Assembly: GCA_020052895.1 (NCBI GenBank)
Contig: JAGVOE010000048.1
Coordinates: 1 to 39,466, forward strand
Source of the DNA: Candidatus Woesebacteria bacterium
GTDB taxonomy: Bacteria; Patescibacteriota; Microgenomatia; UBA1400; MFAQ01
Reading direction: 5' to 3'
DNA length: 39,466 nucleotides
Numbering within the stretch: position 1 is the stretch's first letter; the number at the start of each line of letters is the position of its first letter. The position numbers and the translations under genes are program-made. The notes under the pieces are model-generated. The model had not been told where the DNA came from, made no database searches, and saw only the letters and a program-made list of their open reading frames with translations. Positions 1 to 36,436 of this stretch are shown here, piece by piece.

Positions 1-530
1 AGATCGATTATGTTGAGATTATTAAAGAAAAACTGGGAATTGATATCTTTAAATCTACCGAAGCGGAGATGCTGACCGCGGTGAAGAAAAACGGAGTAGT
101 GTTGACCGGAGCAATTAACAGAAGCCGTTTGATTGATAACTGCTGGAAGATAGTTCGCAAAACCATCGCCGGCCCGGCGTTTCTTTTGAACGAGCCGAAG
201 TTTATGTCGCCCTTAGCTAAGAGCAAACCGGAAAACCCGGACCTCACCGAAAGATTTCATGTCATTATAGCCGGCTCCGAGCTGGGTAATGGCTACACAG
301 AATTGAATGATCCTGAGGATCAAAAAGCTCGCTTTGAAGAGCAGCAAGGACAGAGAGAAGCCGGAGATGAAGAGGCTCAGATGCTGGACGCTGACTTTGT
401 AGAGATGCTGGAGTATGGTATGCCACCTACTTCTGGCTGGGGCCACTCAGAAAGACTTTTCTGGTTCCTGGAAGATATATCCGGAAGAGAAGGAGTGCTA
501 TTTCCACCATTAAGAATTAAAAAAGATTAA
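1..530 (+). CDS. lysS: lysyl-tRNA synthetase, class II, C-terminal part (5' end outside window)
   Basis: The frame is open from base 3. The translation contains FHVIIAGSELGNGYTELNDPEDQ and LEYGMPPTSGWGHSERL, typical of the class II LysRS catalytic core. Confidence 0.9.
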   Translation, partial: IDYVEIIKEKLGIDIFKSTEAEMLTAVKKNGVVLTGAINRSRLIDNCWKIVRKTIAGPAFLLNEPKFMSPLAKSKPENPDLTERFHVIIAGSELGNGYTELNDPEDQKARFEEQQGQREAGDEEAQMLDADFVEMLEYGMPPTSGWGHSERLFWFLEDISGREGVLFPPLRIKKD

Positions 531-580
531 AATTTATTTAGATTCCGGATCAACCCGTTTGTCGATGAGTCAGGTCTGGA

Positions 581-1861
581 ATGACAAGAAACAATATGGA
601 AGAAAAAAAGATAGATCAGACTGAGGAACATCTAGACCCAAGAGATCATCGTGTCTTGGGACGCGAACTAGATCTATTTACATTTTCGGATACAGTCGGG
701 AAAGGCTTACCTCTTTGGACACCTAGAGGGGCGACTTTTCGAAGAGAGCTGGAAAAGTTTGTCGTAGAGACGGAAATTGAGTGGGGATATCAACACGTCT
801 ATACCCCAGATATTGCCAAGATCGACCTGTACAAGAAGTCGGGTCACTACCCTTACTATAAGGACACCATGTATGCGCCAATTCAAATAGATGAAGAGGA
901 ATTTATGCTTCGCCCGATGACCTGCCCGCACCACTTCGAACTTTTCTTGTCCAAGCCGAGAAGCTACAAAGAATTGCCAATGCGAATTGCAGAGATTGCC
1001 AAACTGTATAGATACGAGCTGTCCGGAGTGCTTTCGGGACTGACAAGAGTTCGTTCTTTTTGTTTGGCGGATGCGCACATAATCTGTGCTGATGAAGACC
1101 AGGCAAAAACGGAAATTGCTCACGCTATAGATCTGATTGAGTATATGGCCGGAGTTTTTGGTTTGAAGATGGGCAAAGACTTTTCTTACAGATTGTCACT
1201 GGGTGACAGAAACGATAAAAAGAAGTATTTTGACGATGACAAATCTTGGGATAAATCGGAAGGAATTTTGAGAGAAGTACTAAACGAAAGAAAAAGCAAG
1301 TTTGTGGAAGCCGAGGGAGAGGCGGCTTTTTATGGCCCCAAGATCGACATTCAGATGAAAAAGATCAATGGGGTCGAAGAAACAGCTTTTACGGTGCAGT
1401 ACGACTTTGTGATGCCGACACGGTTTGACTTGAAGTTTACAGCGAGTGATGGCACCGAAAAGTTGCCTTTGGTGATTCACCGATCCAGTATTGGGGCGAT
1501 CGAAAGAATCGCGGCGTTTTTGCTGGAGCACTTCAACGGAGCCTTACCTCTGTGGTTATCACCATACCAAGTAGCAGTGCTGCCGATCTCCGAGAAAACC
1601 TTGGAGTACTCGGAAAAGATAGTCAAAGAGCTAAAGGCTCAAGGGATTCGAGTAGAGCTGAATACCGAAGCTGACTCTCTGGGCAAGAAGATCAGAAATG
1701 CCGAAGCTTCGAAAGTGCCATACATGCTAATCATTGGCGAAAAAGAGGTCAAGAGCGAACAGGTGTCCGTGCGAGCTAGGGGACAGAAAGATCTGGGTGC
1801 GATGACACTAGCTGATTTTGCCAAAAAAATTATTAAAGAAGATAAGGAGAAAAGCTTGTAA
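581..1861 (+). CDS. thrS: threonyl-tRNA synthetase, short form (catalytic plus anticodon-binding domains only)
   Basis: From residue ~20 it matches the E. coli ThrRS catalytic core (RDHRVLGRELDLF, MLRPMTCPHH, ADAHII, VIHRS). The Zn ligands Cys/His/His are present. No TGS or N-terminal editing domain is present. Confidence 0.9.
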   Translation: MTRNNMEEKKIDQTEEHLDPRDHRVLGRELDLFTFSDTVGKGLPLWTPRGATFRRELEKFVVETEIEWGYQHVYTPDIAKIDLYKKSGHYPYYKDTMYAPIQIDEEEFMLRPMTCPHHFELFLSKPRSYKELPMRIAEIAKLYRYELSGVLSGLTRVRSFCLADAHIICADEDQAKTEIAHAIDLIEYMAGVFGLKMGKDFSYRLSLGDRNDKKKYFDDDKSWDKSEGILREVLNERKSKFVEAEGEAAFYGPKIDIQMKKINGVEETAFTVQYDFVMPTRFDLKFTASDGTEKLPLVIHRSSIGAIERIAAFLLEHFNGALPLWLSPYQVAVLPISEKTLEYSEKIVKELKAQGIRVELNTEADSLGKKIRNAEASKVPYMLIIGEKEVKSEQVSVRARGQKDLGAMTLADFAKKIIKEDKEKSL

Positions 1862-1870
1862 AATAGAGTT

Positions 1871-3088
1871 ATGGATGAAGCTAAGAAGAAACAACTAATT
1901 GAGAGTTTTTTAACTCGTGGAGTAGAAAATATTATTCCTGGGCGATCCGAACTGGAGAAATTGCTGTATTCTGGTAAGAAACTAAACGTGTACCTGGGGA
2001 TTGATCCGACGGCAACTCGCATCCACCTTGGGCATGCCTTTCCCCTTAGAAAATTGCAAATATTGGCAGATTTAGGACATAACGTGACTTTTTTGATAGG
2101 GGACTTTACGGCTAAAGTGGGTGACACTTCTGACAAAGAAGCCGAGAGACCAATCTTAACTGACGAGCAAATTGAAGAGAATTTTCAGACATACAAAAGA
2201 CAGGCGGCTAGGTTTTTGGATTTTGCCAAAATAAAAGTGGTTCATAACAGTGAATGGCTATCAAAGCTAAATTTTGGTGATGTTTTAAAACTGGCACAGA
2301 ATTTTTCCTTGAATGACTTTATTAGTCGTGAGCTGATTAAAAAGAGGTGGACTGAGGGGAAAAGAATCGCTCTGCCGGAAGTGTTTTATCCCATGATGCA
2401 AGGTTATGACAGCTATATCATGGATACCGACCTTCAGCTGGGTGGAACAGACCAGACTTTTAATATGCAAGCCGGTAGAACCCTGCAGAAGAATTTGAGA
2501 AGCAAGGAGTCGTTTGTAATGGCTAATGGATTTTTACCTGGAACTGATGGTAGGAAGATGAGCAAGAGTTGGGGGAATGCTGTCTGGATTGAAGATGCAC
2601 CAGAAGAGATCTACGGCAAGATAATGTCTACCAGCGATGATGTTTTGGGAGTTTACTTTGAAATGGGTACAAACGCACCGGTTGAAGTGATTGAAGATGC
2701 GAAGAAAAGACTTTCTGCTGGAGAGAACCCGATGAACCTGAAGAAAGAACTAGCAAAGGTAATTGTCAAAGAGTTGCATGGTGACGAAGCAGTGGCATTG
2801 GCTGAAGAGCACTTTAGAAAAACAGTGGTGGAAAAAGTTGCTGGGGAAGACACTCCGGTGATAAAGATTAACTTTGCGGTTCCAGTACTAGGTGCAGAGG
2901 CTTCACTGGCAGCTTACGCGATGGCCAACGGTCTTGTGTCGAGCAACACTGAATTCAAAACTCTTTTGAAAGAAGGTGCCATATATTTGAATGAAAAGAG
3001 AGTATCAACGGAACCAGAGTTGGAGCTTAAACAAGGTGAAAACGTGGTGAGAATTGGAAAGAGAAAGTATCTGAAGCTAGTTAAGTAA
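1871..3088 (+). CDS. tyrS: tyrosyl-tRNA synthetase
   Basis: It has the HIGH-type motif (RIHLGHAFPL) and KMSKS. GIDPTA and LQLGGTDQ are TyrRS-type. The C-terminus is S4-like. Confidence 0.9.
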   Translation: MDEAKKKQLIESFLTRGVENIIPGRSELEKLLYSGKKLNVYLGIDPTATRIHLGHAFPLRKLQILADLGHNVTFLIGDFTAKVGDTSDKEAERPILTDEQIEENFQTYKRQAARFLDFAKIKVVHNSEWLSKLNFGDVLKLAQNFSLNDFISRELIKKRWTEGKRIALPEVFYPMMQGYDSYIMDTDLQLGGTDQTFNMQAGRTLQKNLRSKESFVMANGFLPGTDGRKMSKSWGNAVWIEDAPEEIYGKIMSTSDDVLGVYFEMGTNAPVEVIEDAKKRLSAGENPMNLKKELAKVIVKELHGDEAVALAEEHFRKTVVEKVAGEDTPVIKINFAVPVLGAEASLAAYAMANGLVSSNTEFKTLLKEGAIYLNEKRVSTEPELELKQGENVVRIGKRKYLKLVK

Positions 3089-3094
3089 GCGGTT

Positions 3095-3433
3095 GTGGAA
3101 ACTGAAGACTTAATAGAAATAATACTTAAAAAAGAGTCGATCGTGAGATGGCAAGCGCTTGGGTGGTGCAGAACCTGGTCTGATCAGGTAATGGATATGT
3201 TGGGAGGAATGCCTGATATATTTACCGATATTGAGGCTAGAGAGGTCGAGCTTAGTCCTGCTTATTGGCACACCTTTGTGTCTGCAAAGACAAAAGAAGA
3301 GGGGAGGTATTTTTTCGACGTTAGAGGATTTGTGGGAAAAGAAGATGACGCACCTCCGAGCCTACAAGGTAGCAGGAGAGATAGTCTCTTAATGACCGAA
3401 AGAGAGATAAGGTACAAAAGTATTGACAAATAA
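3095..3433 (+). CDS. hypothetical protein (GTG start)
   Basis: A 112-aa ORF packed 6 nt after tyrS. No recognisable motif. Confidence 0.45.
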   Translation: METEDLIEIILKKESIVRWQALGWCRTWSDQVMDMLGGMPDIFTDIEAREVELSPAYWHTFVSAKTKEEGRYFFDVRGFVGKEDDAPPSLQGSRRDSLLMTEREIRYKSIDK

Positions 3434-3451
3434 ATTTATTATTGATAGATT
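3423..3451 (+). promoter_or_regulatory. sigma70-type promoter for the T-box leader
   Basis: TTGACA (3423-3428), a 17-nt spacer ending in TGA, then TAGATT (3446-3451). It lies about 28 nt upstream of T-box Stem I. Confidence 0.6.
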
Positions 3452-3478
3452 TGTATATTCTTTAACAGAATTGTGAAT

Positions 3479-3754
3479 GCGTCGAAGGAGAAATAGTAGG
3501 CAGTAAAGGTGACAAGAGAGAGCTTGCGGGTGGTGAAAGCAAGTCGAACTTTATTCGTCGAATTAACCCTCCCGAGCCGGTTTTGGTAACAAGACCCGGG
3601 TTCTCCCGTAATAGAGTTGTAGTGTGTCACCCCAGAAGGTAAACCGAGCACTAGAAAAGTTCATCTCCGCGAGGAGATGAAAAACACAAGGTGGTACCGT
3701 CTTTAATAAAAGGCCCTTGTCTGATCCTATTTTGGGGTTGGACGAGGGTTTTTT
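3479..3754 (+). promoter_or_regulatory. T-box riboswitch leader (tRNA-sensing transcription attenuator)
   Basis: Stem I has a GA/K-turn base (GCGUCGAAGGAG ... CUCCCGAGC), the AGUA S-turn element, an AGAGAGAG bulge and a GGUGGUGAAAGC distal loop. The specifier loop reads GAA-UUA-A (3560-3566). Stem III is CAUCUCC-GCGA-GGAGAUG (3662-3679). The T-box sequence is ACAAGGUGGUACCGUC. The antiterminator has helices ACAAGG/CCUUGU and GUCUUU/AAAGGC around a 7-nt UGGUACC bulge. A competing terminator follows. Confidence 0.85.
3714..3754 (+). terminator. intrinsic terminator of the T-box leader
   Basis: CCCUUGUC (3714-3721) pairs with GACGAGGG (3741-3748) and is followed by UUUUUU. The 5' strand overlaps the 3' strand of the antiterminator. 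Confidence 0.8.
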
Positions 3755-3771
3755 ATTATATAAATAACAAA

Positions 3772-6066
3772 ATGAAAGAAAAAAATACACAAGTTGAGTT
3801 TCTTAAAAAAGTCGAGGTTGACAAAAAGGTCAAGGAAATAGAGTTTTTGGGTAACTTGGTTTTGAAGTCGGATTTGTTTGCCGATGACAACAACGATGAG
3901 TTTCAGGTAATACTGCCCAATGGTGAAATGGTGGGAATATTTAAAACCTGGGCAGTTCCAGCGATACCCTTGATTGAGTCTGGAGTTGCTGATGGGTGGA
4001 AAACAGTCGAAAACTGGTCAAAAAAAATGAAGACGGAACCAGTAAAAGCATGGGAAAACTTGGAGCGGTGGAGAGGATTTGCTGAAAATAACGACAGACG
4101 TTTGTACAAAGTATTTTCCGAAATAGAGTTGCCGACAGACAAAAGGGAGAGAATTGCAGAACTATACACTAGACTAAAAATTGCTTTTGGATATGCCTCG
4201 CCTTTTTACCACATTGAAGCGATGGTGGGGGATGGAAACAATACCCAAGGAAACCCTTTTGCGGGAATAGATAAAGGAGTTTCAGGTGGATTTTTGGATA
4301 TGGTGGGAATGTTGCTGCCATCTGCTCTCGAAGATAGATTGACGGCAGAAAAACTTAATTGGAAAGGACTGTCGTGGAAAGAATTACAACAGAAAGTAGA
4401 AACTGAGGCGGACGTAAAGAAGCTGTCAGTTTTGTTGCGGGTAGCAAGAGCAGCGGGAATAAAAACGGAAGAAGTGCTTTTCGCTGCCAATGTACTAGAG
4501 TGGATACCTGTAAGTGTCGGTGGAAAGAAAGGAGACCTTTTTTCGGAGGAAGCCACTAGCCAATTGCTTCAAATTTCGGGATCATCAAGCGAGCTGGATT
4601 TGGATAGGGTTGCTAGAGATATGAATGGGCTGATTAGGTTTTTGAACTGGACTCCTTTGGTCAGAGGTCAAAATAACTTTTCGGAAACGGCGGGATGGAA
4701 GTATTCCGCTGTGTGTGAGACAGCCAATCTCTTGATTAAGGAACTATCGGATGGAAAACAAATGAGAGCCAATATCTCAAGTGACTTTGTGGAATTTGTT
4801 TTGCCTCAACTAACCAACTTGGATGCTTCTTCGGCTAGGGGAAGGTTCGCTTTGTGGATGCTAGAAAATAATTGGTTGGATAGAAATTTGGAGATAAAAA
4901 TCCGGTCCGGTGAGAAGAAAATAGTTAGAGAGATAGCAATAAGAATGGTGGAAGCAGAAAATGAAGATGAAGTAATTGATCTGGGTGCCAGTAACAGCCG
5001 ACAGCTAGTGGGAGGAAAAGCGGCTGGACTGTACGAGGCCTCGGTAATATTTGGAAAAGAGTTTGTGGACAATGGGGCGGTGGTGACAACGGAGGCAATT
5101 GACAGATGGCTTAAGTCCGACAGTGCTTTGTTTGACTTGATTAAAGATCTTGAAAGCTCAACGAGCATTCAAAGAAAGCTGAGTATCGGTGAAGAAATAA
5201 GAAAAAGGATATTGAATAAAAAGTTTCCAGAAGCTATTGTGGAAAAAATTCGGCAGAAGGTATCTTCGGAGCTAGTGGCGGTGAGATCTTCTTCTTTTGA
5301 TGAGGACACCCTAGTAAATGGCAGTGCTGCTGGAATTTATGAGAGTGAGGTGCCGGTGCTTCGTGAGCATATTGGTGACGGCCTAGTGTCTGTGGTGTCC
5401 TCCTTTTTCTCGGAGAAAGCCATTAGCTACAGACACCTACACAAGTTGTCTGACATACCCATGTTCGCTGGCCTGGTACATGATTACGTTGATGGCAGGG
5501 GTGGGGTCGTGTTTTCTGGAGGGAATTCGTCTGATTGGTCTGTGTTTACAGGAGCGACGCCTGGCCACATTGTGTCTGGAGATAGCCAGTTTGATAGTAT
5601 TGAAAAACGAGGAAGCAGGATCCAGACTAGCCTAAAAAATGGCTGGGTTGAAGCAGAAACTGTGAATTTATTGGGTGAAATGTCTGTTTTGGGAGAGGAA
5701 GTTCTGGGTGGAAAAGCGGACATAGAATTTGTAGTTGGTATCGAAGGAATCAAAATTTTGCAACTAAGAATGTTAAATGAGAAAAGCGAAGCGACTAAAA
5801 GAAAAATTGAGAAACCAAAACGCTGGTTTAATCTGACAGAAACTAAGAACTTGGCAGATGTTACTATTGATGGATCTGATCCTGTGGGACTAATAGTAGA
5901 TAGCTCGATGAATATAGAACAGTTCCAAGGAGAGCTTTTCCGATGTCTAGTTAGAAATAAAAACAGAATCACCGAGGTGAACCTGCCAAAGAAAATACCC
6001 GGAACTAGCCATTTTGCAAATATTTGTTTAAACTTAGGGATAAATTTAACTTTCAGAAATGAATAA
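3772..6066 (+). CDS. PEP-synthase/PPDK-family phosphotransferase (dikinase-like): novel N-terminal ~400 aa, ATP-grasp PPDK_N-type domain, C-terminal swivel phosphohistidine-like domain
   Basis: GGKAAGLYEA, VAVRSSSFDEDTLVNGSAAGIYES and GVVFSG match the PEP/pyruvate-binding ATP-grasp domain. The C-terminal PGTSHFANICLNLGI resembles the GGxTSHAAIvAReLGIP mobile His domain. The start is set at ATG 3772, because the upstream part of the 3691 ORF is the T-box terminator. Confidence 0.7.
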   Translation: MKEKNTQVEFLKKVEVDKKVKEIEFLGNLVLKSDLFADDNNDEFQVILPNGEMVGIFKTWAVPAIPLIESGVADGWKTVENWSKKMKTEPVKAWENLERWRGFAENNDRRLYKVFSEIELPTDKRERIAELYTRLKIAFGYASPFYHIEAMVGDGNNTQGNPFAGIDKGVSGGFLDMVGMLLPSALEDRLTAEKLNWKGLSWKELQQKVETEADVKKLSVLLRVARAAGIKTEEVLFAANVLEWIPVSVGGKKGDLFSEEATSQLLQISGSSSELDLDRVARDMNGLIRFLNWTPLVRGQNNFSETAGWKYSAVCETANLLIKELSDGKQMRANISSDFVEFVLPQLTNLDASSARGRFALWMLENNWLDRNLEIKIRSGEKKIVREIAIRMVEAENEDEVIDLGASNSRQLVGGKAAGLYEASVIFGKEFVDNGAVVTTEAIDRWLKSDSALFDLIKDLESSTSIQRKLSIGEEIRKRILNKKFPEAIVEKIRQKVSSELVAVRSSSFDEDTLVNGSAAGIYESEVPVLREHIGDGLVSVVSSFFSEKAISYRHLHKLSDIPMFAGLVHDYVDGRGGVVFSGGNSSDWSVFTGATPGHIVSGDSQFDSIEKRGSRIQTSLKNGWVEAETVNLLGEMSVLGEEVLGGKADIEFVVGIEGIKILQLRMLNEKSEATKRKIEKPKRWFNLTETKNLADVTIDGSDPVGLIVDSSMNIEQFQGELFRCLVRNKNRITEVNLPKKIPGTSHFANICLNLGINLTFRNE

Positions 6067-6787
6067 AAGCCAAATAGATTTGACTGATAAAATTGGAAAA
6101 GAAGCGGTGAGGCTTGACTGGGAAGAAGCCTTTGGAGGGAAGTCTTATGGGAACACTCATCTCTACAGAGTGAATAAGATTGCTAAACATTTACAAGAAA
6201 AAGAAGGGGGTAACTTGTTTATTATCCTGGTGGGCGCGTGGGTGCACGATGTTTCACTTGCAACTGGTAGCGACTATGATTCAGAGAGGGTGTCAATTGA
6301 GACAAAAAAGTTTTTGGACAAATTTAATTTATCTGAGAATGATAAAACGGTGATAGTTGAATCCGTTGCGGGACATGAAATTGAAGATGGGGAAAAAAGC
6401 CTTGAGGCGAAGATAGTACATGATGCTGATGCAGTTGATAAGTGTGGATCTCTAGGAATTGTTCGTCATATATGGAAAACAACAAATATGCTGAAAAATA
6501 GGGTACTTGAAAGTGATAAAGATTTGAGTGAGATTGAAAATCATATTAAAACTAGACAAGCTCACTTGATGACCATCACTGCTAATAATTTGGTAAAAGA
6601 TTTGAACGCACAAGGAAATAAATTTTTTGATGATAGAGATAAGGCAAGAATGATGATGAAAGAAATCTCTCGGTTAGCATGGTCAGGAATGAATGCAGAT
6701 AAAATTGTTAAGAAACTGAAAGAAACAAAAGACAGTGAATGGGTGGAAAATTTAGCCGGACAACTAAAGTGCAAATATTTGAAATAA
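6059..6787 (+). CDS. HD-domain metal-dependent phosphohydrolase
   Basis: It has H...HD...H...D signatures (HLYRV, AWVHDV, VAGHE, HDADAVDK). It overlaps the upstream gene by 8 nt. Confidence 0.7.
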   Translation: MNKSQIDLTDKIGKEAVRLDWEEAFGGKSYGNTHLYRVNKIAKHLQEKEGGNLFIILVGAWVHDVSLATGSDYDSERVSIETKKFLDKFNLSENDKTVIVESVAGHEIEDGEKSLEAKIVHDADAVDKCGSLGIVRHIWKTTNMLKNRVLESDKDLSEIENHIKTRQAHLMTITANNLVKDLNAQGNKFFDDRDKARMMMKEISRLAWSGMNADKIVKKLKETKDSEWVENLAGQLKCKYLK

Positions 6788-6788
6788 A

Positions 6789-7664
6789 ATGGAGACAGAG
6801 TACACAGAAACACAGATGGAGAGAAGCAGGCTGGTTGTAGAAATAGATGAACTTATAGAACAAAAAGAAGTCAAGGAATTAATTAAACTATTGTCTGTAA
6901 AAGGACAATCGGTCGGTAATTTGTTTGGCTTTGAGGTGATTTCTCTATTATCGGTAGACTTTGAGACAGTGGATCAGAAAATTGGTCTAGCCCTATTGGC
7001 TTCTGCTTGTTTTCAAAAACCAATGAGTTTAAATGGCGTAAGTTTAGTGGAATTTGATAAAGCGAAAATAAATATTGTAACCAACGAAGAAAAACTTTAC
7101 GGATTTTGGGGAGAGAAGTTTACCAAAGACGATAAGGGGAGAAATATATATTATGTTGATATTGTTGGGATATCCAATAACGTGAGATCAACTGGAATTG
7201 GAGGTGCTTTGGGTGAGATGTGTCTGTATAATTTTTTGGAAAATAACAGAAGTCAAGATACAGTGATACTGACAAGAACACAGAACCCAATAATGGTAGG
7301 AGCTTTAAAAAAATGTTTACCAAAATACTTGAAACTTTACCCATTTGAAGAAGATCCTTCTTTGGCATGGGTTGAATCTGTAAACTGGCTTGTTTCGAAT
7401 GGATTTATTTCACGGAATGATCGCCATGATACTCATTTCGACGCGCGGGAATCCTTAATACATTGGGGTGCTTATGGAGAGTGTGGAGATGGAAGTACGT
7501 GGGAAAACATGATCGAAAATTATATGGGAGAGATAGATTGGTCTAAAAATATTCCTATTGGAATGGTCAATTACCTAGTTAGAAATGGAACCAGTTTGGA
7601 AGAGAGTTTGACTAGAGGTCATGCATTTATCGTGGGTGGATTCATAGATAGATTAAAAAAGTGA
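6789..7664 (+). CDS. hypothetical protein, possibly GNAT-fold acyltransferase-like
   Basis: A 291-aa ORF starting 1 nt after the HD gene. VDIVGISNNVRSTGIGGALGE resembles GNAT motif A (R-x-x-G-x-G). The assignment is weak. Confidence 0.4.
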   Translation: METEYTETQMERSRLVVEIDELIEQKEVKELIKLLSVKGQSVGNLFGFEVISLLSVDFETVDQKIGLALLASACFQKPMSLNGVSLVEFDKAKINIVTNEEKLYGFWGEKFTKDDKGRNIYYVDIVGISNNVRSTGIGGALGEMCLYNFLENNRSQDTVILTRTQNPIMVGALKKCLPKYLKLYPFEEDPSLAWVESVNWLVSNGFISRNDRHDTHFDARESLIHWGAYGECGDGSTWENMIENYMGEIDWSKNIPIGMVNYLVRNGTSLEESLTRGHAFIVGGFIDRLKK

Positions 7665-7722
7665 TTGTTTGCGAATTATTTTTAAAATAAAAATCTTCTT
7701 ACCACTTTACCACTTCATACTA

Positions 7723-7750
7723 TTGACAGGAGATAAAACAATGGTACGAT
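7723..7750 (+). promoter_or_regulatory. candidate promoter (TTGACA, 16 nt, TGG-TACGAT)
   Basis: TTGACA 7723-7728 and an extended -10-like TGGTACGAT at 7742-7750. Confidence 0.4.
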
Positions 7751-7794
7751 GAGCTACAACATGAAATACTATTTGGATAGTAAGTAAGAGTTTG

Positions 7795-7815
7795 ACACCC
7801 ATTTGGGTGTTTTTT
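7795..7815 (+). terminator. intrinsic terminator-like hairpin
   Basis: ACACCC-AUUU-GGGUGU followed by UUUUU. It lies between the GNAT-like gene and the decarboxylase gene. Confidence 0.65.
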
Positions 7816-7844
7816 GTATCTAGTAATTAATAATCTCATAAAAT

Positions 7845-9314
7845 ATGAAAAAAATTGAAGAAGTTAGAGAGTATTTTATAAATCCGAGAAACGTCGAGAA
7901 TGTTGAGGTGGTGGCTCAGCTAGGAGCCGATACAATACGCGCAATGGCGCTGATTTATGTTACAGGAGGAGATATTTCGCTAATGGACGAAAAAACTCAA
8001 AACTGGCTAAGTAGATCCAAAGACTCTGATGCCATCAATGAAATTATGGGTGAATTGCTTTTTCGTGAGTCATCAACCAGAAAATTTGATCATAAATTCA
8101 TGGGGCAAATTCATCCGAGTGGGGGAAAGATAGGTATCTTGGCAACATTAGTGGCGGCGTATATGAATACCAATACCATAGTAAAAGAAGTTTCTTCTTC
8201 TGAGCACAGAATGGAACATGAGGCTATAGATTGGCTCGGAGAAATGTTTGGCTATGACAAAGAAAAATTTAGTGGAAATATCGTCACAGATGGAACTTTG
8301 GCCAACCTGGCAGCATTATGGGTAGCTAGAGAGAAAAAGATTAAAGAATTGAAAGAATCCGGTAAGTGGAAGTCAGACACGGTAATGCATGTCTTGGTAA
8401 ACGACATGAGGCATTATTCGATAGACAAAGCTTGCGTGATACTAGGCACGGGGAATGTGGTGTTAACTCTGCTTCCTAGAAAAGGATATAAAACTGACTT
8501 GGGGGAGGCACAAAAGGCAATTTGGAAGATAAATAGAAGGGGCGAGCAGGTCCTGGCACTAATAGGACTTGCTGGAGAAACTGAAACTGGAGAAGTTGAT
8601 AATATAGATTCTCTGGCTGATTTAGCTGATTCAACGGGAGTGTTTTTACACGTTGATGCGGCTTATGGTGGACCATTCATAATGTCTCAAAGAAGCGGTT
8701 TGTTTAGGGGAATTAATCGAGCAGATTCGATTACGGTAGATCCTCACAAAATGCTTTATGTTCCATACGAGGCTGGGGCTGTGCTATTTAAAGATAAGAA
8801 AGACCACGCCTTGATACAAAGGAGCGCTAGATATTTACAACCAGAGGATAATATGGGTTTATTGGGAGACCCTGAAGAAAGAAATTTTGGTTTTGCGGCA
8901 CGTGTGGAAGGTTCGATGGGATCTGGGGGGGTAATGGCTACCTGGGCCACAGAGAAACTATTGGGTAAAGAAGGATTTACGGCTTTACTTGATCACACGC
9001 TGGAGTTAACAAATCACTGCTTTGACAGAGTCAGCGGTTCTAAGTTTCTTAGACCAATTCACACTCCAGAATTAAACACTCTGTTAATAGGATTATCTAA
9101 TAGTATTCATCTGAGCAAGAAAGATCATTTAGAGTTGGTACAAGATGTCCAACAAGCTGTGGACAAAGAACACGGATACTATGTTTCAACAAATGATGAA
9201 GTGGACAATGGGAAGGCGGCGTTTAGATTTGTAGCAACCCATCCTTGGACAGATATTGTGGATGTTGATGGACTAATCGATTGTTTGGAACTAGAGATTG
9301 CCTCAAGGATATAG
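7845..9314 (+). CDS. group II pyridoxal-phosphate-dependent amino acid decarboxylase
   Basis: VTDGTLANLAALWVARE, HVDAAYGG and SITVDPHKMLYVPYEAG (PLP lysine in DPHK) are typical of the Tyr/Glu/aromatic decarboxylase family. Confidence 0.85.
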   Translation: MKKIEEVREYFINPRNVENVEVVAQLGADTIRAMALIYVTGGDISLMDEKTQNWLSRSKDSDAINEIMGELLFRESSTRKFDHKFMGQIHPSGGKIGILATLVAAYMNTNTIVKEVSSSEHRMEHEAIDWLGEMFGYDKEKFSGNIVTDGTLANLAALWVAREKKIKELKESGKWKSDTVMHVLVNDMRHYSIDKACVILGTGNVVLTLLPRKGYKTDLGEAQKAIWKINRRGEQVLALIGLAGETETGEVDNIDSLADLADSTGVFLHVDAAYGGPFIMSQRSGLFRGINRADSITVDPHKMLYVPYEAGAVLFKDKKDHALIQRSARYLQPEDNMGLLGDPEERNFGFAARVEGSMGSGGVMATWATEKLLGKEGFTALLDHTLELTNHCFDRVSGSKFLRPIHTPELNTLLIGLSNSIHLSKKDHLELVQDVQQAVDKEHGYYVSTNDEVDNGKAAFRFVATHPWTDIVDVDGLIDCLELEIASRI

Positions 9315-9332
9315 TATTTGAGGTTAAATTGA

Positions 9333-9352
9333 CCTGCCTACCGGCAGGCAGG
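9333..9352. repeat. GC-rich palindromic element, variant CTGCCTACCGGCAGGC
   Basis: CCTGCCTACCGGCAGGCAGG. The same 16-mer recurs at 33893-33908, and the close variant TGCCTGCCGGCAGGCA occurs at 30604-30619 and 32385-32400. Confidence 0.8.
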
Positions 9353-9359
9353 CACGATG

Positions 9360-9368
9360 TGATAGAAT
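9360..9368 (+). promoter_or_regulatory. extended -10 promoter element TGATAGAAT
   Basis: TGa+TAGAAT. The ATG of the mini-ORF begins 7 nt after the hexamer. Confidence 0.45.
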
Positions 9369-9374
9369 ACTCTC

Positions 9375-9434
9375 ATGAATAAGTCCTTTTGGTCTCATCA
9401 TACCTATTTCAACCATTCGTTTGGGAGGGTTTGA
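9375..9434 (+). CDS. candidate 19-aa leader peptide MNKSFWSHHTYFNHSFGRV (His-His plus one further His)
   Basis: A short ORF read directly from the sequence. Its last six codons and stop overlap the 5' arm of a long hairpin that competes with a terminator upstream of hisS. Confidence 0.35.
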   Translation: MNKSFWSHHTYFNHSFGRV

Positions 9435-9473
9435 TGTGCTTATTCGATAGTTATCGACACAACCTCCCAAACG
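9418..9473 (+). promoter_or_regulatory. long hairpin (candidate antiterminator)
   Basis: CGUUUGGGAGG (9418-9428) pairs perfectly with CCUCCCAAACG (9463-9473). There are additional UU/AA and GUG/CAC pairs and an apical UCGAUA-GU-UAUCGA hairpin. Confidence 0.55.
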
Positions 9474-9490
9474 GAGGTTTTTTCGTTTTT
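9461..9490 (+). terminator. intrinsic terminator
   Basis: AACCUCC-CAAAC-GGAGGUU followed by UUUUUCGUUUUU. Its 5' arm is the 3' arm of the long hairpin. Confidence 0.65.
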
Positions 9491-9636
9491 GGAGGGTTAG
9501 GAGGTATTATTAAAATAGTGGTGAAAAATAAGAGCTTGCTCGTCTTCTTTTCAATAATCTAATTATTGAAATATCCAGACTGTGCTTCCTCTTATATTTG
9601 CTCATAACTTCGTTATGATGCTTAAATATAAAAAAT

Positions 9637-10848
9637 ATGAATAATATACAAACATTAAAGGGATTTCGTGACTTTTTGCCGAAAGAAGCGAAGGGGCGAC
9701 AGTGGCTGAAAAGAAAAATTGAGGATATTTTTGAGTTGTGGGGGTTCGATCCGATGGAAACACCGACTTTGGAACCCTTGGAACTATTTGAGGGTAAAAT
9801 TGGGGAAGAGGAACAACTATTCTTTAAATTTAAAGATAATGCCGGGCGAGATGTTGCCCTCCGATACGACCAGACGGTACCGACTTGCCGAGTAGTCGGG
9901 CAGTACGCACAGTCACTACCCATGCCTTTTCGCAGATATCAAATTCAACCAGCCTTTAGGGCCGAAAAACCACAGAAAGGGAGGTATCGAGAATTTGTCC
10001 AGTGTGATGCAGATATCTTTGGCGAAAGTTCCTATCTGGCTGATGCTGAAGTAATTGGTTTGTCGATCGATATATACAAAAGATTGGGATTTAAGAATGC
10101 TTGCGTGTCGGTGAACGACCGTGAACTACTAGCTAAAATACCTTACAAGGCGATAGTAGCTATCGACAAGCTAGAAAAGATTGGTGAATTGGGAGTAATA
10201 AGGGACATGATCGAGAAAGGAATTGAGAGAGAAGAAGCAATAAAGTATCTCAAACAGGTTCGTGAACTTCGACCAAATGAAAGGATATTGAAAATATTTG
10301 ATTATTTAAAGAACCTTGGGTTTGATGAAAGTTGGTACAAATTTGAACCGACATTATCCAGATCCTTTTCTTATTCGAGCGGTCCGATTTGGGAGGTTAA
10401 AATAAAAAACTCAACGGGAGGATCAGTGCTGGGTGGAGAAAGATATGATGGGTTGGTAGAAAAAATATCCGGAATTAAAATGCCTGGAACGGGATTTGGT
10501 TTGGGTTTTGATAGAACTTTGGAAGCTTGTCAGGAATTCGGGCTGTTGCCGGAATTTTCGACGGTAACTAAAGTGTTGGTATGTGTGATGGATGGGGAAT
10601 ATTTTGAATATGGGATGCAGATATTAAAAAATTTAAGAGATGTGGGTGTGGAATCGGAAATTTACCCAAGTAAAGAAGTAAAAATAGACAAACAACTAAG
10701 GTATGCAAATAAGAAAGGTATTCCGTATGTGATGATTGTTGGGGCTGACGAAGTACAAGCCAAAAAGGTGTCTCTGAAAAATATGAAGACCGGGGAGCAA
10801 GAGACAACGTTTGTTGAAGATGCGATTAAAAAACTAAAAACAAAATGA
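9637..10848 (+). CDS. hisS: histidyl-tRNA synthetase
   Basis: LKGFRDFLP, RYDQTVP and RRYQIQPAFRAEKPQKGRYREFVQCD are HisRS signatures, followed by a C-terminal anticodon-binding domain. Confidence 0.9.
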   Translation: MNNIQTLKGFRDFLPKEAKGRQWLKRKIEDIFELWGFDPMETPTLEPLELFEGKIGEEEQLFFKFKDNAGRDVALRYDQTVPTCRVVGQYAQSLPMPFRRYQIQPAFRAEKPQKGRYREFVQCDADIFGESSYLADAEVIGLSIDIYKRLGFKNACVSVNDRELLAKIPYKAIVAIDKLEKIGELGVIRDMIEKGIEREEAIKYLKQVRELRPNERILKIFDYLKNLGFDESWYKFEPTLSRSFSYSSGPIWEVKIKNSTGGSVLGGERYDGLVEKISGIKMPGTGFGLGFDRTLEACQEFGLLPEFSTVTKVLVCVMDGEYFEYGMQILKNLRDVGVESEIYPSKEVKIDKQLRYANKKGIPYVMIVGADEVQAKKVSLKNMKTGEQETTFVEDAIKKLKTK

Positions 10849-14740: not shown

Positions 14741-16564
14741 ATGAAAACGGAAACGAGCCCACTGCTTCGTCCCCAGATAGATTTTGATCGTAGCTTGGCA
14801 GAGTTTCAAGCAAATGTCTCGCCCAGAGTGATTGAGGCTTTGAAAGTAGCGGCTGAGATTCATAAAAATGACTTCAGAATAGTCACGGGAGAGCCCTACC
14901 TGAATCATTGCGTGGCTGTAGCTAGCTTATTGACCAACTGGGGAGCTGATGAAGATGAAGTGGTGGCTGGATTGCTGCACGACACTTGGGAAGACCATCC
15001 AGAAAAAATTACCTTGGATGATATCGCTGACAATTTTAACGAGAGGGTGTCTCACCTGGTATCCGGAGTGACAAAGCTCAAGTCTAGACGGGGTGAAAAA
15101 AACGAATTTGAGACACTCAAAAAAGTAACTAAAGAGAGTTTTATTGAGCGAGGGGTGGCTCTAATTAAGCTGGCGGACAGACTACATAATATGCTGACGA
15201 TGGAAGGAATGTCCCCCATGACCCAAGAAAGGAAAGCGAGAGAAACACTGGCGGTTTATGCCCCACTGGCCGAGTCTTTTGGACTATGGCAAGTAAAGAA
15301 TCTACTTCAAGATCTATCTTTTAAGTACGTTGAGCCGAAGAGATACTCTCTGACCACAGAAATGATAGATGGTGACCCGAGACTGGAAACGACCTTTATT
15401 GAGAAAAGAGAGGAAGAACTCCAAAAACTACTAGCCCAAAATGGTATTCGAGCCGAGGTGGGACATCAGGTAGGAGGATACTGGGAGATGGCCGAAAAGC
15501 AGAAAAAGTTTGGCATGAGAGCCAGCGCCCAGCCAAACAGCTTTGCTGAGATATCGGATGTGATTAGTTTTAGGGTGGTAGTAGAAGACGGCGAGCTAGC
15601 TGATTGCTACAAAGCTTTGGGGATAGTCCGTCTTTTTTACGAAGGAAAACTAATGAAACAAAGACACAATGACTACCTGGGCGTGAGCGCCGTCAATGGC
15701 TACTCCGCCCTTCATGATACTTACAGATTTGAGGAAGGAGATATTGAAGTAGCTTTTTCGACTAAAAGTAAAGAAAGTTTTAACAACTGGGGAGTGGTGA
15801 GTCTTGACAAAGAGGAACTAAAGAAAAATCCAGAGCTCTACCAAAGGAAGCTGATCTTTACGCCCAAGAAAGAGCTGGTCTTTATGGAGATTGCGGCTAG
15901 GGGAATTGATGTGGCTTATAAACTTAATCCCCTGCTGGGATTGAGGGCTGTGGGCATAATGATAGATGGAAAAATGAACCCGCTGGAGGCGGTAGTGCCC
16001 AATGCCAGCGAAGTTGAGGTGATGTTTGACCGAGATCAGACCAGGCCCAAAGTCGAGTGCCTAGAGTACGGTAATCCCAGTACCAGGAGGTGGATTGAGC
16101 ATCAGCTGTTGGTGGCTCAGAGAGACGAGGAAGTAGCTCGAGGAGAAGAGATGATAAGGTCTGAGATTTTGTCCGAGAGAGGTATCTTAAATATTGTAGA
16201 TTTGGATAGGAGCTTGGTGGACAAACTGTTAATGGAACTGGGCTGCTGGAATGGCCTAGCCGACCTTTACTACAAAGCGGCTTATGGACTGGATCTAAAG
16301 CTGGTCGGTAAAAAAATGGATGAGCTGGGAGTGGTTCGGGGTAGATACACTTCGATTCAGATCCGGGGAATAAATGAAATTGGAATATCTAAAGATCTGG
16401 CACAAATAGTAAATCGATTTGGAGGAGATGTCCGAAGTAAGGTGGAGAAGGTGGATGATCGGGATAAATTTGTGGTCAGAGTTCTCTTGACGATTGGCTA
16501 TGAGGCCAAGAAGAAAATGGAGTTTGAGCTAAAAGAAAAGTTTCCCGACTGTGTGGTGATTTGA
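14741..16564 (+). CDS. rel: RelA/SpoT-homologue (p)ppGpp synthetase/hydrolase
   Basis: An HD hydrolase domain (HCVAVASLL, LLHDTWED), a synthetase region (ISFRVVV, GYSALHDTY), a TGS-like segment and an ACT-like C-terminus. Confidence 0.85.
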   Translation: MKTETSPLLRPQIDFDRSLAEFQANVSPRVIEALKVAAEIHKNDFRIVTGEPYLNHCVAVASLLTNWGADEDEVVAGLLHDTWEDHPEKITLDDIADNFNERVSHLVSGVTKLKSRRGEKNEFETLKKVTKESFIERGVALIKLADRLHNMLTMEGMSPMTQERKARETLAVYAPLAESFGLWQVKNLLQDLSFKYVEPKRYSLTTEMIDGDPRLETTFIEKREEELQKLLAQNGIRAEVGHQVGGYWEMAEKQKKFGMRASAQPNSFAEISDVISFRVVVEDGELADCYKALGIVRLFYEGKLMKQRHNDYLGVSAVNGYSALHDTYRFEEGDIEVAFSTKSKESFNNWGVVSLDKEELKKNPELYQRKLIFTPKKELVFMEIAARGIDVAYKLNPLLGLRAVGIMIDGKMNPLEAVVPNASEVEVMFDRDQTRPKVECLEYGNPSTRRWIEHQLLVAQRDEEVARGEEMIRSEILSERGILNIVDLDRSLVDKLLMELGCWNGLADLYYKAAYGLDLKLVGKKMDELGVVRGRYTSIQIRGINEIGISKDLAQIVNRFGGDVRSKVEKVDDRDKFVVRVLLTIGYEAKKKMEFELKEKFPDCVVI

Positions 16565-36272: not shown

Positions 36273-36396
36273 AACAAGGTATCCGTACTGGAAGGTGCGG
36301 ATGGATCACCTCCTTTCTAGGAGTTAAGGACTTCACGAGTCCGATGATAATATCGCCACACTATTGGTGAATGAGTGTCTAAATACAATTCACCTG

Positions 36397-36421
36397 ACTC
36401 TTGCCACTCTTGAAACGATAA
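36397..36421 (+). other. 3' strand of the 16S processing stem
   Basis: ACTCTTGCCACTCTTGAAACGATAA is complementary to 34061-34085. Confidence 0.75.
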
Positions 36422-36436
36422 GAAGCTGCTTTGCTT

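What the first reader, a model, noticed from the sequence alone, without database searches (positions are those of the whole stretch)
3479..3754. Complete T-box riboswitch with apparent UUA (Leu) specifier controlling a non-synthetase operon
All canonical T-box parts can be read:
- a K-turn base
- the AGUA/GAA S-turn
- an AG bulge and distal loop
- Stem III with a GCGA loop
- the T-box sequence with the 7-nt UGGUACC antiterminator bulge
- a mutually exclusive terminator

By analogy with glyQS leaders (GAA-GGC-A), the specifier position reads GAA-UUA-A (3563-3565). UGGU fits an A73 discriminator. This suggests tRNA-Leu.

Seven aminoacyl-tRNA synthetase genes lie in this window, including leuS, and none has a T-box. 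Instead the T-box precedes a dikinase-like enzyme of unknown substrate. That gives a rare regulatory clue that this uncharacterised operon responds to uncharged tRNA.
Basis: partly seen in the sequence, partly recalled or inferred. Interest (0 to 1): 0.75.

Follow-up and report, generated by a model that had tools for sequence, protein, structure and literature searches.

The report
Tyrosine-linked T-box before unknown dikinase
The T-box riboswitch is real, but relatives show that its family senses tyrosine tRNA rather than leucine tRNA, which ties an uncharacterised enzyme cassette of candidate-phyla bacteria to tyrosine supply.

Summary
The T-box at 3473-3754 is genuine. Rfam T-box scores 83 bits (E 1e-16 to 1e-18), just under the 93-bit curated cut-off. 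At least 28 distinct orthologous loci carry the same leader before the same 764-aa gene. Stem I shows compensatory changes in 18 of 18 predicted pairs, and all 24 leaders checked keep a terminator overlapping the antiterminator.

The Leu (UUA) call is not supported. Nearly all orthologues read GAA-U-UAC-(C/A), a tyrosine codon. The context is tyrosine throughout:
- tyrS genes sit inside or beside the operon.
- tRNA-Tyr genes lie just upstream of the T-box in several loci.
- Orthologues without a T-box have leader peptides with YYY to YYYYYY runs plus a terminator instead, and some have both.

In this window and two sister lineages an extra A breaks UAC, giving GAAUUAACC. The ligand here is therefore uncertain: tRNA-Tyr is most likely, with Asn (AAC) and Leu (UUA) possible.

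The regulated genes are a rifampin-phosphotransferase-like dikinase with a novel N-terminal domain, an HD hydrolase and an unknown protein. The cassette is accessory in Collierbacteria. A Tyr-codon leader peptide also precedes the downstream PLP decarboxylase.

The parts
3423..3451 (+). Promoter-like site: TTGACA, 17-nt spacer, TG-TAGATT. It would start the leader about 20 nt before Stem I.
   Evidence: 10 of 12 matches, extended -10 TG. This is a consensus match only.
3479..3577 (+). T-box Stem I. K-turn 3479-3486 with 3573-3577. S-turn AGUA 3495-3498 with GAA 3560-3562. AG bulge 3515-3521. Distal loop 3528-3538.
   Evidence: Rfam alignment. Alignment A2 of 20 orthologues: 18 of 18 RNAalifold pairs have compensatory changes.
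3563..3568 (+). Specifier region UUAACC. Possible frames: UUA 3563-3565, UAA 3564-3566, AAC 3565-3567, ACC 3566-3568. Orthologues read UUAC(C/A). One of the two A's at 3565-3566 is extra.
   Evidence: L069 is identical in this stretch except that it lacks the extra A.
3579..3616 (+). Stem II hairpin (3579-3596, no obvious S-turn) and the Stem IIA/B pseudoknot region (3597-3616).
   Evidence: Rfam alignment. The sequence is conserved in orthologues. The pseudoknot was read by eye and not tested.
3660..3681 (+). Stem III (9 bp, GCGA loop), flanked by AAAAG on the 5' side and AA on the 3' side.
   Evidence: The flanks fit the RRRxG-Stem III-AA motif described in PMC7583486.
3686..3720 (+). T-box sequence and antiterminator: helix A1 of 6 bp, 7-nt bulge UGGUACC at 3692-3698, helix A2 of 6 bp, loop AAUA.
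   Evidence: -8.3 kcal/mol. AGGUGGUACCG is identical in 20 of the 24 leaders compared; the other four read AGGUGGUAUCG.
3708..3754 (+). Intrinsic terminator (about 22 bp) plus a U-run. It is mutually exclusive with the antiterminator.
   Evidence: -28.5 kcal/mol. All 24 orthologous leaders have an equivalent hairpin plus U-run, with different stem sequences.
3772..6066 (+). Regulated gene 1, 764 aa. Novel helical N-terminal domain (about 1-400), ATP-grasp domain of the PEP-synthase / rifampin-phosphotransferase type (about 410-670), and a C-terminal small domain with an invariant TSH motif (H747).
   Evidence: Pfam PPDK_N. AF2 model with pLDDT 87.8. Foldseek matches to RPH, PEP synthase and HpeI. 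PDB profile search. Invariant residues. The N-domain occurs in only about 80 representative clusters.
6059..6787 (+). Regulated gene 2: HD-domain phosphohydrolase. Its start overlaps the dikinase stop by 8 nt.
   Evidence: It is adjacent to the dikinase in most orthologous loci.
6789..7664 (+). Regulated gene 3: 291-aa protein with no family match.
   Evidence: Among the fetched loci, a tblastn match (E <= 1e-8) was found only in L002; L067 has a 281-aa gene with no Pfam hit at the same position.
7749..7817 (+). Second, separate attenuator. Leader ORF MSYNMKYYLDSK (7749-7787) follows a promoter-like site at 7723-7750, then a terminator hairpin at 7794-7811 plus a U-run, all ahead of the PLP decarboxylase.
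   Evidence: Most of the 14 orthologous loci examined have the same layout, with YY to YYYY in the short ORF.
7845..9314 (+). Group II PLP-dependent decarboxylase. Its substrate is not assigned.
   Evidence: partial matches to PanP, MfnA and enterococcal Tyr decarboxylase models, all below their cut-offs.
1871..3088 (+). Housekeeping-type tyrS directly upstream of the cassette. It is not under the T-box.
   Evidence: TIGR00234 tyrS at 331.6 bits against a cut-off of 113.8.

Best explanation
This is a functional transcription-attenuating T-box leader. It belongs to a family confined to candidate-phyla (Microgenomates-type) bacteria. The family switches on a dikinase-HD operon when tRNA-Tyr is uncharged.

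Proposed mechanism:
1. Transcription starts near 3458.
2. Stem I captures the tRNA through the specifier loop (anticodon) and the distal double T-loop platform (elbow).
3. If the 3' end of the tRNA is free, ACCA pairs with UGGU (3692-3695). That stabilises the weak antiterminator (3686-3720) against the much stronger terminator (3708-3754).
4. RNA polymerase then reads on into the dikinase, the HD hydrolase and the 291-aa gene.

The family's specifier is UAC (Tyr), not UUA (Leu). In this contig and two sister lineages a single extra A turns UAC into UAAC. The tRNA read here is most probably still tRNA-Tyr, through imperfect or bulged pairing, but that is not settled.

Shown: the RNA parts, their conservation and covariation, the alternative structures, and the tyrosine-linked context.
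Inferred: the ligand identity, the direction of regulation and the enzyme's substrate.
For: The T-box itself:
- Rfam T-box matches at 83 bits, E 1e-16 to 1e-18.
- Orthologous leaders score 66-110 bits, and three exceed the gathering score.
- Stem I: 18 of 18 pairs have compensatory changes.
- A terminator overlapping the antiterminator is conserved in 24 leaders, with different stem sequences.

Tyrosine as the family's amino acid:
- The specifier side reads GAAUUAC(C/A) in all orthologues outside the window clade.
- The C/A column varies, so it lies outside the codon.
- The Rfam consensus for this bulge is GAA-a-uuc-a: one spacer, a codon ending in C, then a purine. That placement fits the TBDB rule of counting 2-4 nt from the bulge end (PMC7778990).
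- L031 has a short Stem I whose loop ends UAC-A.
- L004 has CAAUUACA.
- tyrS lies in the same gene string downstream of the T-box in L034/L035, L001, L002/L067, L018 and L069. Both tyrS types pass the TIGR00234 cut-off.
- tRNA-Tyr(GUA) genes with A73 lie just upstream of the T-box in L003, L024 and L032, and within about 2 kb in L004 and L025.
- Dikinase orthologues without a T-box carry leader peptides with YY to YYYYYY plus a terminator (L008, L009/L037, L041, L043, L048, L049). L027, L028 and L036 have both a T-box and such a peptide.
- Of roughly 17 distinct YYY small-ORF places in 431 kb, about 12 lie directly upstream of the dikinase or decarboxylase genes.
- The window itself keeps a Tyr-codon leader peptide at 7749-7787.
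Against: - In this window UAC is not intact: the bulge reads GAAUUAACC. No clean three-base match to GUA exists.
- The same variant is kept in three lineages whose dikinases are only about 56% identical. It is therefore not a sequencing error and may reflect a changed specificity.
- UUA is the only codon at a fixed distance from the S-turn in all long-stem members. In glycyl T-boxes the codon does follow GAA directly (PMC11404447).
- The nucleotide 3' of UAC is C, not the usual purine, in most orthologues.
- In L052 and L027 the lower helix could extend up to the C of UAC.
- No tRNA-Tyr gene of the window lineage could be examined.
- The window scores below Rfam's gathering threshold.
- There is no experimental evidence of any kind.
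Confidence: 0.7

Rival explanations
1. The specifier is UUA, directly after the GAA S-turn as in glyQS leaders. The T-box senses uncharged tRNA-Leu(UAA).
For: GAA-UUA is invariant in every long and intermediate Stem I member. In the window clade the next base is a purine (A3566), which gives the glyQS-like GAA-NNN-A layout (PMC11404447). UGGU fits A73 of tRNA-Leu (general knowledge).
Against: - Nothing in the context is leucine-related, while tyrS, tRNA-Tyr and Tyr-run leader peptides are pervasive.
- In most orthologues UUA is followed by C, not a purine.
- L031 has no UUA.
- UUA accounts for about 1% of Leu T-box specifiers in TBDB.
- The leuS in the window lies 20 kb away and has no leader.
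Confidence: 0.12
2. Specificity switch in the window clade. The inserted A converted the helix-anchored codon from UAC (Tyr) to AAC (Asn). The leader now senses tRNA-Asn(GUU), or two tRNAs through overlapping codons as in the two-codon NT-box.
For: Counting 2-4 nt from the 3' end of the bulge (the TBDB '+0' frame) gives AAC followed by C, the same spacing as UAC-C in sister leaders. AAC obeys the preference for a codon ending in C. Register shifts of one base are documented for a clostridial T-box (cited).
Against: - UGGU would need a G-U wobble with the usual G73 of bacterial tRNA-Asn (general knowledge; not checked for this lineage).
- L001 and L002 keep a tyrS paralogue in the operon.
- The window keeps a Tyr leader peptide downstream, so the cassette is still tyrosine-themed.
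- There is no asparagine-related gene in the operon.
Confidence: 0.1
3. The specifier is crippled. The leader no longer discriminates tRNAs and acts as a constitutive or leaky terminator in an accessory cassette that is decaying.
For: The Tyr codon is disrupted. The cassette is accessory and absent from the closest Collierbacteria. The window has lost the second tyrS. It also differs from its 98.6%-identical sister contig immediately after the dikinase stop codon.
Against: All other T-box motifs and both alternative structures are intact. The same GAAUUAACCCUC string is preserved in three lineages whose leaders have diverged elsewhere. The downstream ORFs are intact.
Confidence: 0.08

Closest known systems
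T-box leader family (Rfam RF00230), in particular tyrS T-boxes with a UAC specifier such as Bacillus subtilis tyrS
   Same: It has a K-turn, an AGUA/GAA S-turn, an AG bulge and distal loop, Stem II and IIA/B, and Stem III. It has the AGGUGGUACCG core with a UGGN bulge and a terminator/antiterminator switch. Orthologues carry UAC, and several have tyrS downstream.
   Different: The host is a candidate-phyla bacterium. No paper on T-boxes in this group was found in the held library. The first regulated genes are an unknown dikinase and an HD hydrolase. In this window the UAC is split by an extra A. The score is 10 bits under the curated cut-off.
Enterococcus tyramine (TDC) cluster: T-box(UAC)-tyrS next to tyrosine decarboxylase tdcA and tyrP (PMC3315439)
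   Same: It is an accessory cluster that combines a Tyr T-box, an extra tyrS and a PLP-dependent decarboxylase. The synthetase and the decarboxylase have separate control.
   Different: There is no antiporter here. A dikinase and an HD hydrolase are the conserved core. The decarboxylase has its own Tyr-codon leader peptide, and its substrate is unassigned. This window lacks the second tyrS.
Two-codon 'NT-box' of Clostridium acetobutylicum (Saad et al., as cited in PMC7778990 and PMC11404447)
   Same: It has an enlarged specifier loop in which overlapping codons in neighbouring registers could be read.
   Different: In that case dual reading was shown experimentally and links two metabolically related amino acids. 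Here it is only a possibility raised by a one-base insertion.
Small-molecule dikinases: rifampin phosphotransferase, HpeHI and phenylphosphate synthase (PMC12167813)
   Same: The ATP-grasp domain is the best structural and sequence match. The C-terminal TSH motif, with an invariant His, resembles the swivel phosphohistidine domain. Several members phosphorylate hydroxyl groups, including phenols.
   Different: The roughly 400-aa helical N-terminal domain has no detectable relative outside this family. There is no Pfam match to the mobile His domain. The substrate is unknown.
Leader-peptide transcription attenuators (trp, pheA, his type)
   Same: Orthologues without a T-box, and the decarboxylase gene in this window, have a short ORF with tandem codons for one amino acid followed by an intrinsic terminator.
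   Different: The codons are for tyrosine. Ahead of the decarboxylase the stop codon lies 0-11 nt from the terminator stem, and no obvious antiterminator was found, so the direction of control is unclear.

Membership tests
T-box leader (RF00230) | Covariance-model score at or above the curated gathering score (93 bits) | tested here: not met
   The window scores 83.0 bits with E 1e-16 to 1e-18. Orthologues L052, L039 and L036 score 109.9, 100.2 and 95.1 bits. The E-value and the homologues make membership secure despite the cut-off.
T-box leader (RF00230) | Stem I with a K-turn, an S-turn specifier loop, and an AG bulge plus distal loop | tested here: met
   All motifs are present. Covariation supports 18 of 18 predicted Stem I pairs.
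T-box leader (RF00230) | A specifier codon, normally followed by a purine, that matches a tRNA and the amino acid of the regulated genes | tested here: inconclusive
   Orthologues have UAC followed by C or A, with tyrS and tRNA-Tyr in the context. The window has UUAACC: no intact UAC, and possible frames UUA, UAA, AAC and ACC.
T-box leader (RF00230) | Conserved T-box sequence that forms an antiterminator with a 7-nt bulge starting UGGN | tested here: met
   AGGUGGUACCG, with the bulge UGGUACC at 3692-3698. The canonical shape is the MFE fold of 3686-3720.
T-box leader (RF00230) | A mutually exclusive intrinsic terminator (or sequestrator) | tested here: met
   Terminator at 3708-3754, -28.5 kcal/mol plus a U-run, sharing 3709-3720 with the antiterminator. 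It is conserved in 24 leaders.
T-box leader (RF00230) | Stem III with purine-rich flanks (RRRxG ... AA) | tested here: met
   AAAAG, then Stem III at 3660-3681, then AA. The motif is as described in PMC7583486.
T-box leader (RF00230) | Readthrough that depends on uncharged cognate tRNA | not testable with these tools
   This needs in vitro transcription or binding assays.
PEP-utilising / rifampin-phosphotransferase-type dikinases (the regulated 764-aa protein) | ATP-grasp nucleotide-binding domain | tested here: met
   Pfam PPDK_N at 79 bits. Foldseek match to RPH with E 8e-11. PDB profile search with E 5e-22.
PEP-utilising / rifampin-phosphotransferase-type dikinases (the regulated 764-aa protein) | Swivel domain with a catalytic histidine | tested here: inconclusive
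   H747 is invariant within a TSHFANIC motif, in a small alpha/beta C-terminal domain. There is no Pfam hit to the mobile domain. The resemblance to TSHAAIVAR is recalled from memory.
PEP-utilising / rifampin-phosphotransferase-type dikinases (the regulated 764-aa protein) | A known substrate-binding domain (PEP/pyruvate TIM barrel or rifampin-binding domain) | tested here: not met
   Residues 1-400 match nothing in Pfam, NCBIfam or PDB, by sequence or by fold. They occur only in this protein architecture.

The most novel reading that the evidence does not exclude
The dikinase-HD cassette is a mobile module induced by tyrosine starvation or TyrRS inhibition. Its rifampin-phosphotransferase-like enzyme would phosphorylate the phenolic hydroxyl of tyrosine or of a tyrosine-like antimetabolite. 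Some lineages back it with a second TyrRS and a tRNA-Tyr that lacks the variable arm. In this lineage the T-box would read tRNA-Tyr through a non-canonical four-base UAAC specifier, or would have been retargeted by a one-base insertion. Either case would be an unusual mode of T-box decoding or evolution.
Probability: 0.15. Interest if true: 0.8.

Novelty: new member of a known kind. Interest (0 to 1): 0.6.

Why it matters
T-boxes that control non-synthetase genes are well known, and their specifiers have been used to assign functions to unknown genes.

This case adds the following:
- It places a T-box family in candidate-phyla bacteria.
- The corrected amino acid is tyrosine, not leucine.
- The same unknown dikinase-HD pair is wired to tRNA-Tyr charging by two interchangeable mechanisms, a T-box or a Tyr-run leader peptide. 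This is unusually strong regulatory evidence for the biology of a protein family with no other annotation.
- It gives biochemists a short list of substrates to try: tyrosine, tyramine and tyrosine analogues.
- It offers a natural one-base specifier-loop variant for testing how strictly T-boxes fix the codon register.

Tried and rejected
- The default Rfam scan at gathering threshold found no T-box. The permissive scan was needed.
- A regex scan for other T-box cores across about 700 kb of related loci found only one unrelated candidate, L012:2495, ahead of small ORFs. It was not informative for the register.
- ACC/ACA (Thr) was considered because thrS is syntenic. It was rejected because its third base would be the variable C/A column, it would abut the helix with no trailing base, and no tRNA-Thr or Thr-rich leader accompanies the cassette.
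- AUU (Ile) followed by A was considered. It was rejected because it would use the last A of the S-turn, has no isoleucine context, and is absent from L031.
- PADLOC defence models gave no hits for the dikinase, the HD protein, the 291-aa protein or the 112-aa protein.
- The 291-aa protein matched nothing in Pfam, NCBIfam or PDB sequences.
- I looked up the closest tyrS relatives (85-87% identity) hoping for more window-clade leaders. Those four contigs lack the whole cassette and any T-box. That is informative about mobility but not about the specifier.
- No tRNA genes of the window lineage other than tRNA-Ile were available.
- The Vitreschak 2008 comparative T-box paper is not held.
- No paper on T-boxes in Patescibacteria or candidate phyla was found.
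- The Mukai 2017 paper on CPR TyrRS/tRNA-Tyr describes C1-G72 archaeal-type pairs, not the G1-C72 tRNA-Tyr without a variable arm seen here.
Full report
**1. Is the T-box there?**

Yes.
- K-turn: GC/GUC/GA at 3479-3485, opposite GA/GC at 3574-3577.
- S-turn: AGUA 3495-3498 opposite GAA 3560-3562.
- AG bulge: 3515-3521.
- Distal loop: GGGUGGUGAAA 3528-3538.
- Stem II and the IIA/B region: 3579-3616.
- Stem III: 3660-3681 with a GCGA loop.
- T-box core: AGGUGGUACCG.

The default Rfam scan reported only 16S rRNA and tRNA-Ile. The permissive scans match RF00230 end to end at 3473-3721 with 83.0 bits. E is 1.4e-18 locally and 1.1e-16 for the whole window, against a gathering score of 93. No other T-box is found.

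The segment 3686-3720 folds by itself into the canonical antiterminator: 6 bp, the 7-nt bulge UGGUACC, 6 bp and a tetraloop, at -8.3 kcal/mol. The segment 3705-3754 folds into a 22-bp terminator (3708-3754) at -28.5 kcal/mol, followed by U6, and it reuses 3709-3720. A promoter-like TTGACA-17-TGnTAGATT lies at 3423-3451.

**2. Is it conserved?**

The downstream gene (3772-6066, 764 aa) has 36 relatives in the word-indexed search. Scanning genomes and metagenomes gave 66 loci.
- The exact core AGGUGGUACCG lies upstream of the orthologue in 25 of the 48 loci first checked.
- Relaxed patterns and extra look-ups add L002/L067, L039/L044/L045, L004, L030/L053, L068 and L069.
- Rfam scores these leaders at 66-110 bits, and three are above the gathering score.
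- In an alignment of 20 Stem I sequences (A2), RNAalifold predicts 18 pairs, and all 18 have sequences in which both sides changed and pairing is kept.
- All 24 leaders examined have a terminator hairpin plus U-run overlapping the 3' half of the antiterminator. The stems differ in sequence.

The element is therefore a real, selected, transcription-attenuating T-box.

**3. Which tRNA does the family sense?**

| Leaders | Sequence |
|---|---|
| Window (= L013), L001 (= L014, L017), L002 (= L067) | GAA-UUAACC-helix |
| All other long or intermediate Stem I leaders | GAA-UUAC(C/A)-helix |
| L004 | CAA-UUACA |
| L031 (short hairpin Stem I) | loop AAAUAAUACA |

L069 is identical to the window across this stretch except that it lacks the extra A.

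Arguments from the RNA itself:
- The C/A column varies, so it is not part of the codon. That leaves UUA or UAC (or AUU).
- The Rfam consensus for this bulge is GAA-a-uuc-a. It has a spacer, then a codon whose third base is the usual C, then the purine.
- TBDB calls the codon as nucleotides 2-4 from the 3' end of the bulge (PMC7778990).
- Both rules give UAC (Tyr).
- L031 keeps UAC-A at the 3' end of its loop, the position expected for short Stem I T-boxes (PMC7583486). It has neither UUA nor AUU.

**4. The context is decisive for tyrosine**

(a) *tyrS.* A gene string of T-box, dikinase, HD, sometimes the 291-aa gene, sometimes a second tyrS, then PLP decarboxylase and M20 recurs. Both the upstream housekeeping-type tyrS (window 1871-3088) and the in-operon paralogue (L067:9954-11177) pass the TIGR00234 cut-off. 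In L034/L035 the order is T-box, dikinase, HD, tyrS with gaps of 32 and 59 nt.

(b) *tRNA-Tyr.* tRNA-Tyr(GUA) genes lie about 140-350 nt upstream of the start of Stem I in L003, L024 and L032, and about 2 kb upstream of the dikinase gene in L004 and L025. They have A73, which matches UGGU.

(c) *Leader peptides in place of the T-box.* Orthologues without a T-box have a short ORF with a tyrosine run followed by a terminator:
- L008: ...QTYYYLLKKGG
- L009/L037: MKVINGKNTYYYYLLFREGGYYVP
- L048: MKDNQRKLNSYYYYYYDLFRGD
- L049/L050: ...NSYYYYSTSP
- L043: ...AGYYYYSH
- L041: ...AAYYAG

L027, L028 and L036 have both a T-box and such a peptide in tandem.

(d) *Enrichment.* Among 6,952 small ORFs in 431 kb of non-redundant loci, 23 contain YYY, at roughly 17 distinct places. 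About 12 of those places lie directly upstream of the dikinase or decarboxylase genes.

Two unrelated sensing devices for the same gene therefore point to the same amino acid. Nothing points to leucine.

**5. What about this window?**

The extra A destroys the intact UAC. Four frames are possible:
- UUA, adjacent to the S-turn as in glycyl T-boxes (PMC11404447).
- UAA.
- AAC, the TBDB '+0' frame.
- ACC.

The variant is shared by three lineages whose dikinases are only about 56% identical, and the surrounding 12 nt are identical in all three. It is therefore real and maintained.

The cassette remains tyrosine-themed in this clade. L001 and L002 keep the second tyrS, and the window keeps a Tyr-codon leader peptide at 7749-7787. 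I therefore regard tRNA-Tyr as the most likely ligand here too, with imperfect pairing.

My split for this one leader:

| Outcome | Estimate |
|---|---|
| tRNA-Tyr | about 0.55-0.6 |
| tRNA-Leu | about 0.12 |
| tRNA-Asn, or dual reading | about 0.1-0.15 |
| Crippled specifier | about 0.08 |

This part is inference. Register shifts of one base are documented elsewhere.

**6. What is regulated?**

*The 764-aa protein.*
- Pfam finds only PPDK_N at residues 411-584.
- The AlphaFold model is confident, with pLDDT 87.8 and pTM 0.87.
- Its best structural matches are the ATP-grasp domains of rifampin phosphotransferase, PEP synthase and HpeI. A profile search of PDB sequences agrees.
- The C-terminal roughly 90 residues form a small alpha/beta domain with an invariant TSH (H747). 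I read this, from memory of the TSHAAIVAR motif, as the swivel phosphohistidine domain.
- Residues 1-400 are helical and match nothing. An exhaustive search of 1.84 billion representatives finds this domain in only 80 clusters, almost all of them 720-840-aa proteins with the domain at the N-terminus; the rest are shorter, mostly fragment-length sequences.

*What its relatives do.* Enzymes with this ATP-grasp domain (RPH, HpeHI, phenylphosphate synthase) phosphorylate hydroxyl groups of small molecules, including phenols (PMC12167813). A tyrosine-like phenol is therefore an attractive substrate, but it is untested.

*The partner genes.* The HD hydrolase gene overlaps the dikinase stop codon and is its constant partner. 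The 291-aa protein has no match.

**7. The cassette is accessory**
- The window is an entire 39,466-nt contig of a Collierbacteria-like organism.
- It is 98.6% identical to L013 over 1-6065. It then diverges exactly after the dikinase stop codon and realigns at 85% from 10657.
- Four contigs whose tyrS is 85-87% identical lack the T-box, the dikinase, the HD gene and the decarboxylase. In L073 the order is thrS, tyrS, hisS, M20.
- The dikinase is only about 56% identical between genomes whose tyrS is 83-89% identical.

**8. Comparison with known systems**

The RNA is a T-box by every structural criterion tested. It fails only the curated bit score, by 10 bits.

The nearest functional analogue is the enterococcal tyramine cluster. 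There a UAC T-box controls an extra tyrS that sits next to a tyrosine decarboxylase (PMC3315439).

What is new:
- the host group;
- the regulated dikinase-HD pair;
- the interchange of a T-box with Tyr leader peptides;
- the split specifier in this lineage.

I found no paper describing T-boxes in candidate-phyla bacteria in the held library. That is not proof of absence, and TBDB itself could not be queried.

**9. Verdict**
- Observation: confirmed.
- Interpretation: partly supported. The T-box and the non-synthetase target in this window hold. The Leu assignment does not.
- The finding is an ordinary kind of element in an unusual host, and it gives a useful regulatory clue: tyrosine.

Noticed in passing
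window 7723-7845 (+): A promoter-like site (7723-7750) is followed by a 12-codon ORF, MSYNMKYYLDSK (7749-7787). Its stop lies 6 nt before a terminator hairpin (7794-7811 plus a U-run), just ahead of the PLP decarboxylase ATG at 7845. Most of the 14 orthologous loci examined show the same layout, with YY to YYYY, and the stop 0-11 nt from the terminator stem. No clear antiterminator was found, so stalling at the Tyr codons might lower rather than raise readthrough.
   Followed up: partly
L008:6787, L009:4502 (= L037:6806), L048:6803, L049:6810, L043:5022, L041:6823; tandem with a T-box in L027:3212, L028:1554, L036:5234: Leader peptides with YY to YYYYYY runs plus intrinsic terminators sit upstream of dikinase orthologues. 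They either replace the T-box or lie between the T-box terminator and the gene. In L009 the sequence allows a classical 1:2 / 2:3 / 3:4 alternative pairing (read by eye).
   Followed up: partly
L003:6420-6492, L024:6111-6182, L032:6488-6560, L004:4866-4936, L025:2820-2893: These tRNA-Tyr(GUA) genes are only 71-74 nt long. They have G1-C72 and A73 but no long variable arm, which is unlike normal bacterial tRNA-Tyr (L043 has the usual 88-nt form). They lie beside the T-box cassette. In L003 and L024 the tblastn match to the in-cluster tyrS covers only about residues 10-318 of the window's TyrRS, leaving out the C-terminal part where the variable-arm-binding domain lies. The CPR TyrRS paper (PMC5370408) describes C1-G72 types, not this combination.
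   Followed up: partly
L001:7433-8614, L002:10951-12132 (= L067:9954-11177), L006:11671-12771, L025:10705-11868, L018:10107-11270; two tandem copies in L004:13718-16140: A second, divergent tyrS (30-43% identical to the housekeeping copy but above the TIGR00234 cut-off) lies inside the cassette in many genomes that also have the housekeeping tyrS just upstream. This window lacks it.
   Followed up: partly
window 6066-10656 compared with L013: The window and the metagenome contig L013 are 98.6% identical for 1-6065 and then unrelated at the DNA level until 10657. The break falls exactly at the dikinase stop codon. Gene order after the break also differs: HD, 291-aa gene, decarboxylase, hisS, M20 here, against HD, decarboxylase, M20, hisS in L013. 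This is either cassette exchange between strains or an assembly chimera.
   Followed up: partly
L070-L073 (contigs of the closest tyrS relatives): Closely related Collierbacteria have thrS and tyrS followed soon after by hisS (directly adjacent only in L073), with no T-box, dikinase, HD gene or decarboxylase. The roughly 6.5-kb cassette (window about 3089-9636) therefore looks like an insertion between tyrS and hisS.
   Followed up: partly
window 581-1861 (+): The thrS gene encodes only 426 aa and aligns to positions 163-564 of the ThrRS model, so the N-terminal region is missing. L071 has the same short form, while L070, L072 and L073 have 597-599-aa versions with the tRNA_SAD domain.
   Followed up: no
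window 3617-3659 (+): The stretch between the IIA/B region and Stem III, which Rfam treats as an insertion, contains a motif conserved across orthologous leaders (GUGUGUCAC ... GAGCAC). It may form a family-specific extra hairpin.
   Followed up: no
window 35591-37370 (+): About 1.8 kb separates the end of the 16S rRNA gene (35590) from tRNA-Ile (37371), and it contains ORFs of 115-195 aa. This is an unusually long spacer that might hold an inserted element.
   Followed up: no
window 1-26353: The window has an unusual density of translation genes: seven aaRS genes, plus a RelA/SpoT-family gene (14741-16564) and the tRNA-modification gene mnmA (31291-32535).
   Followed up: no
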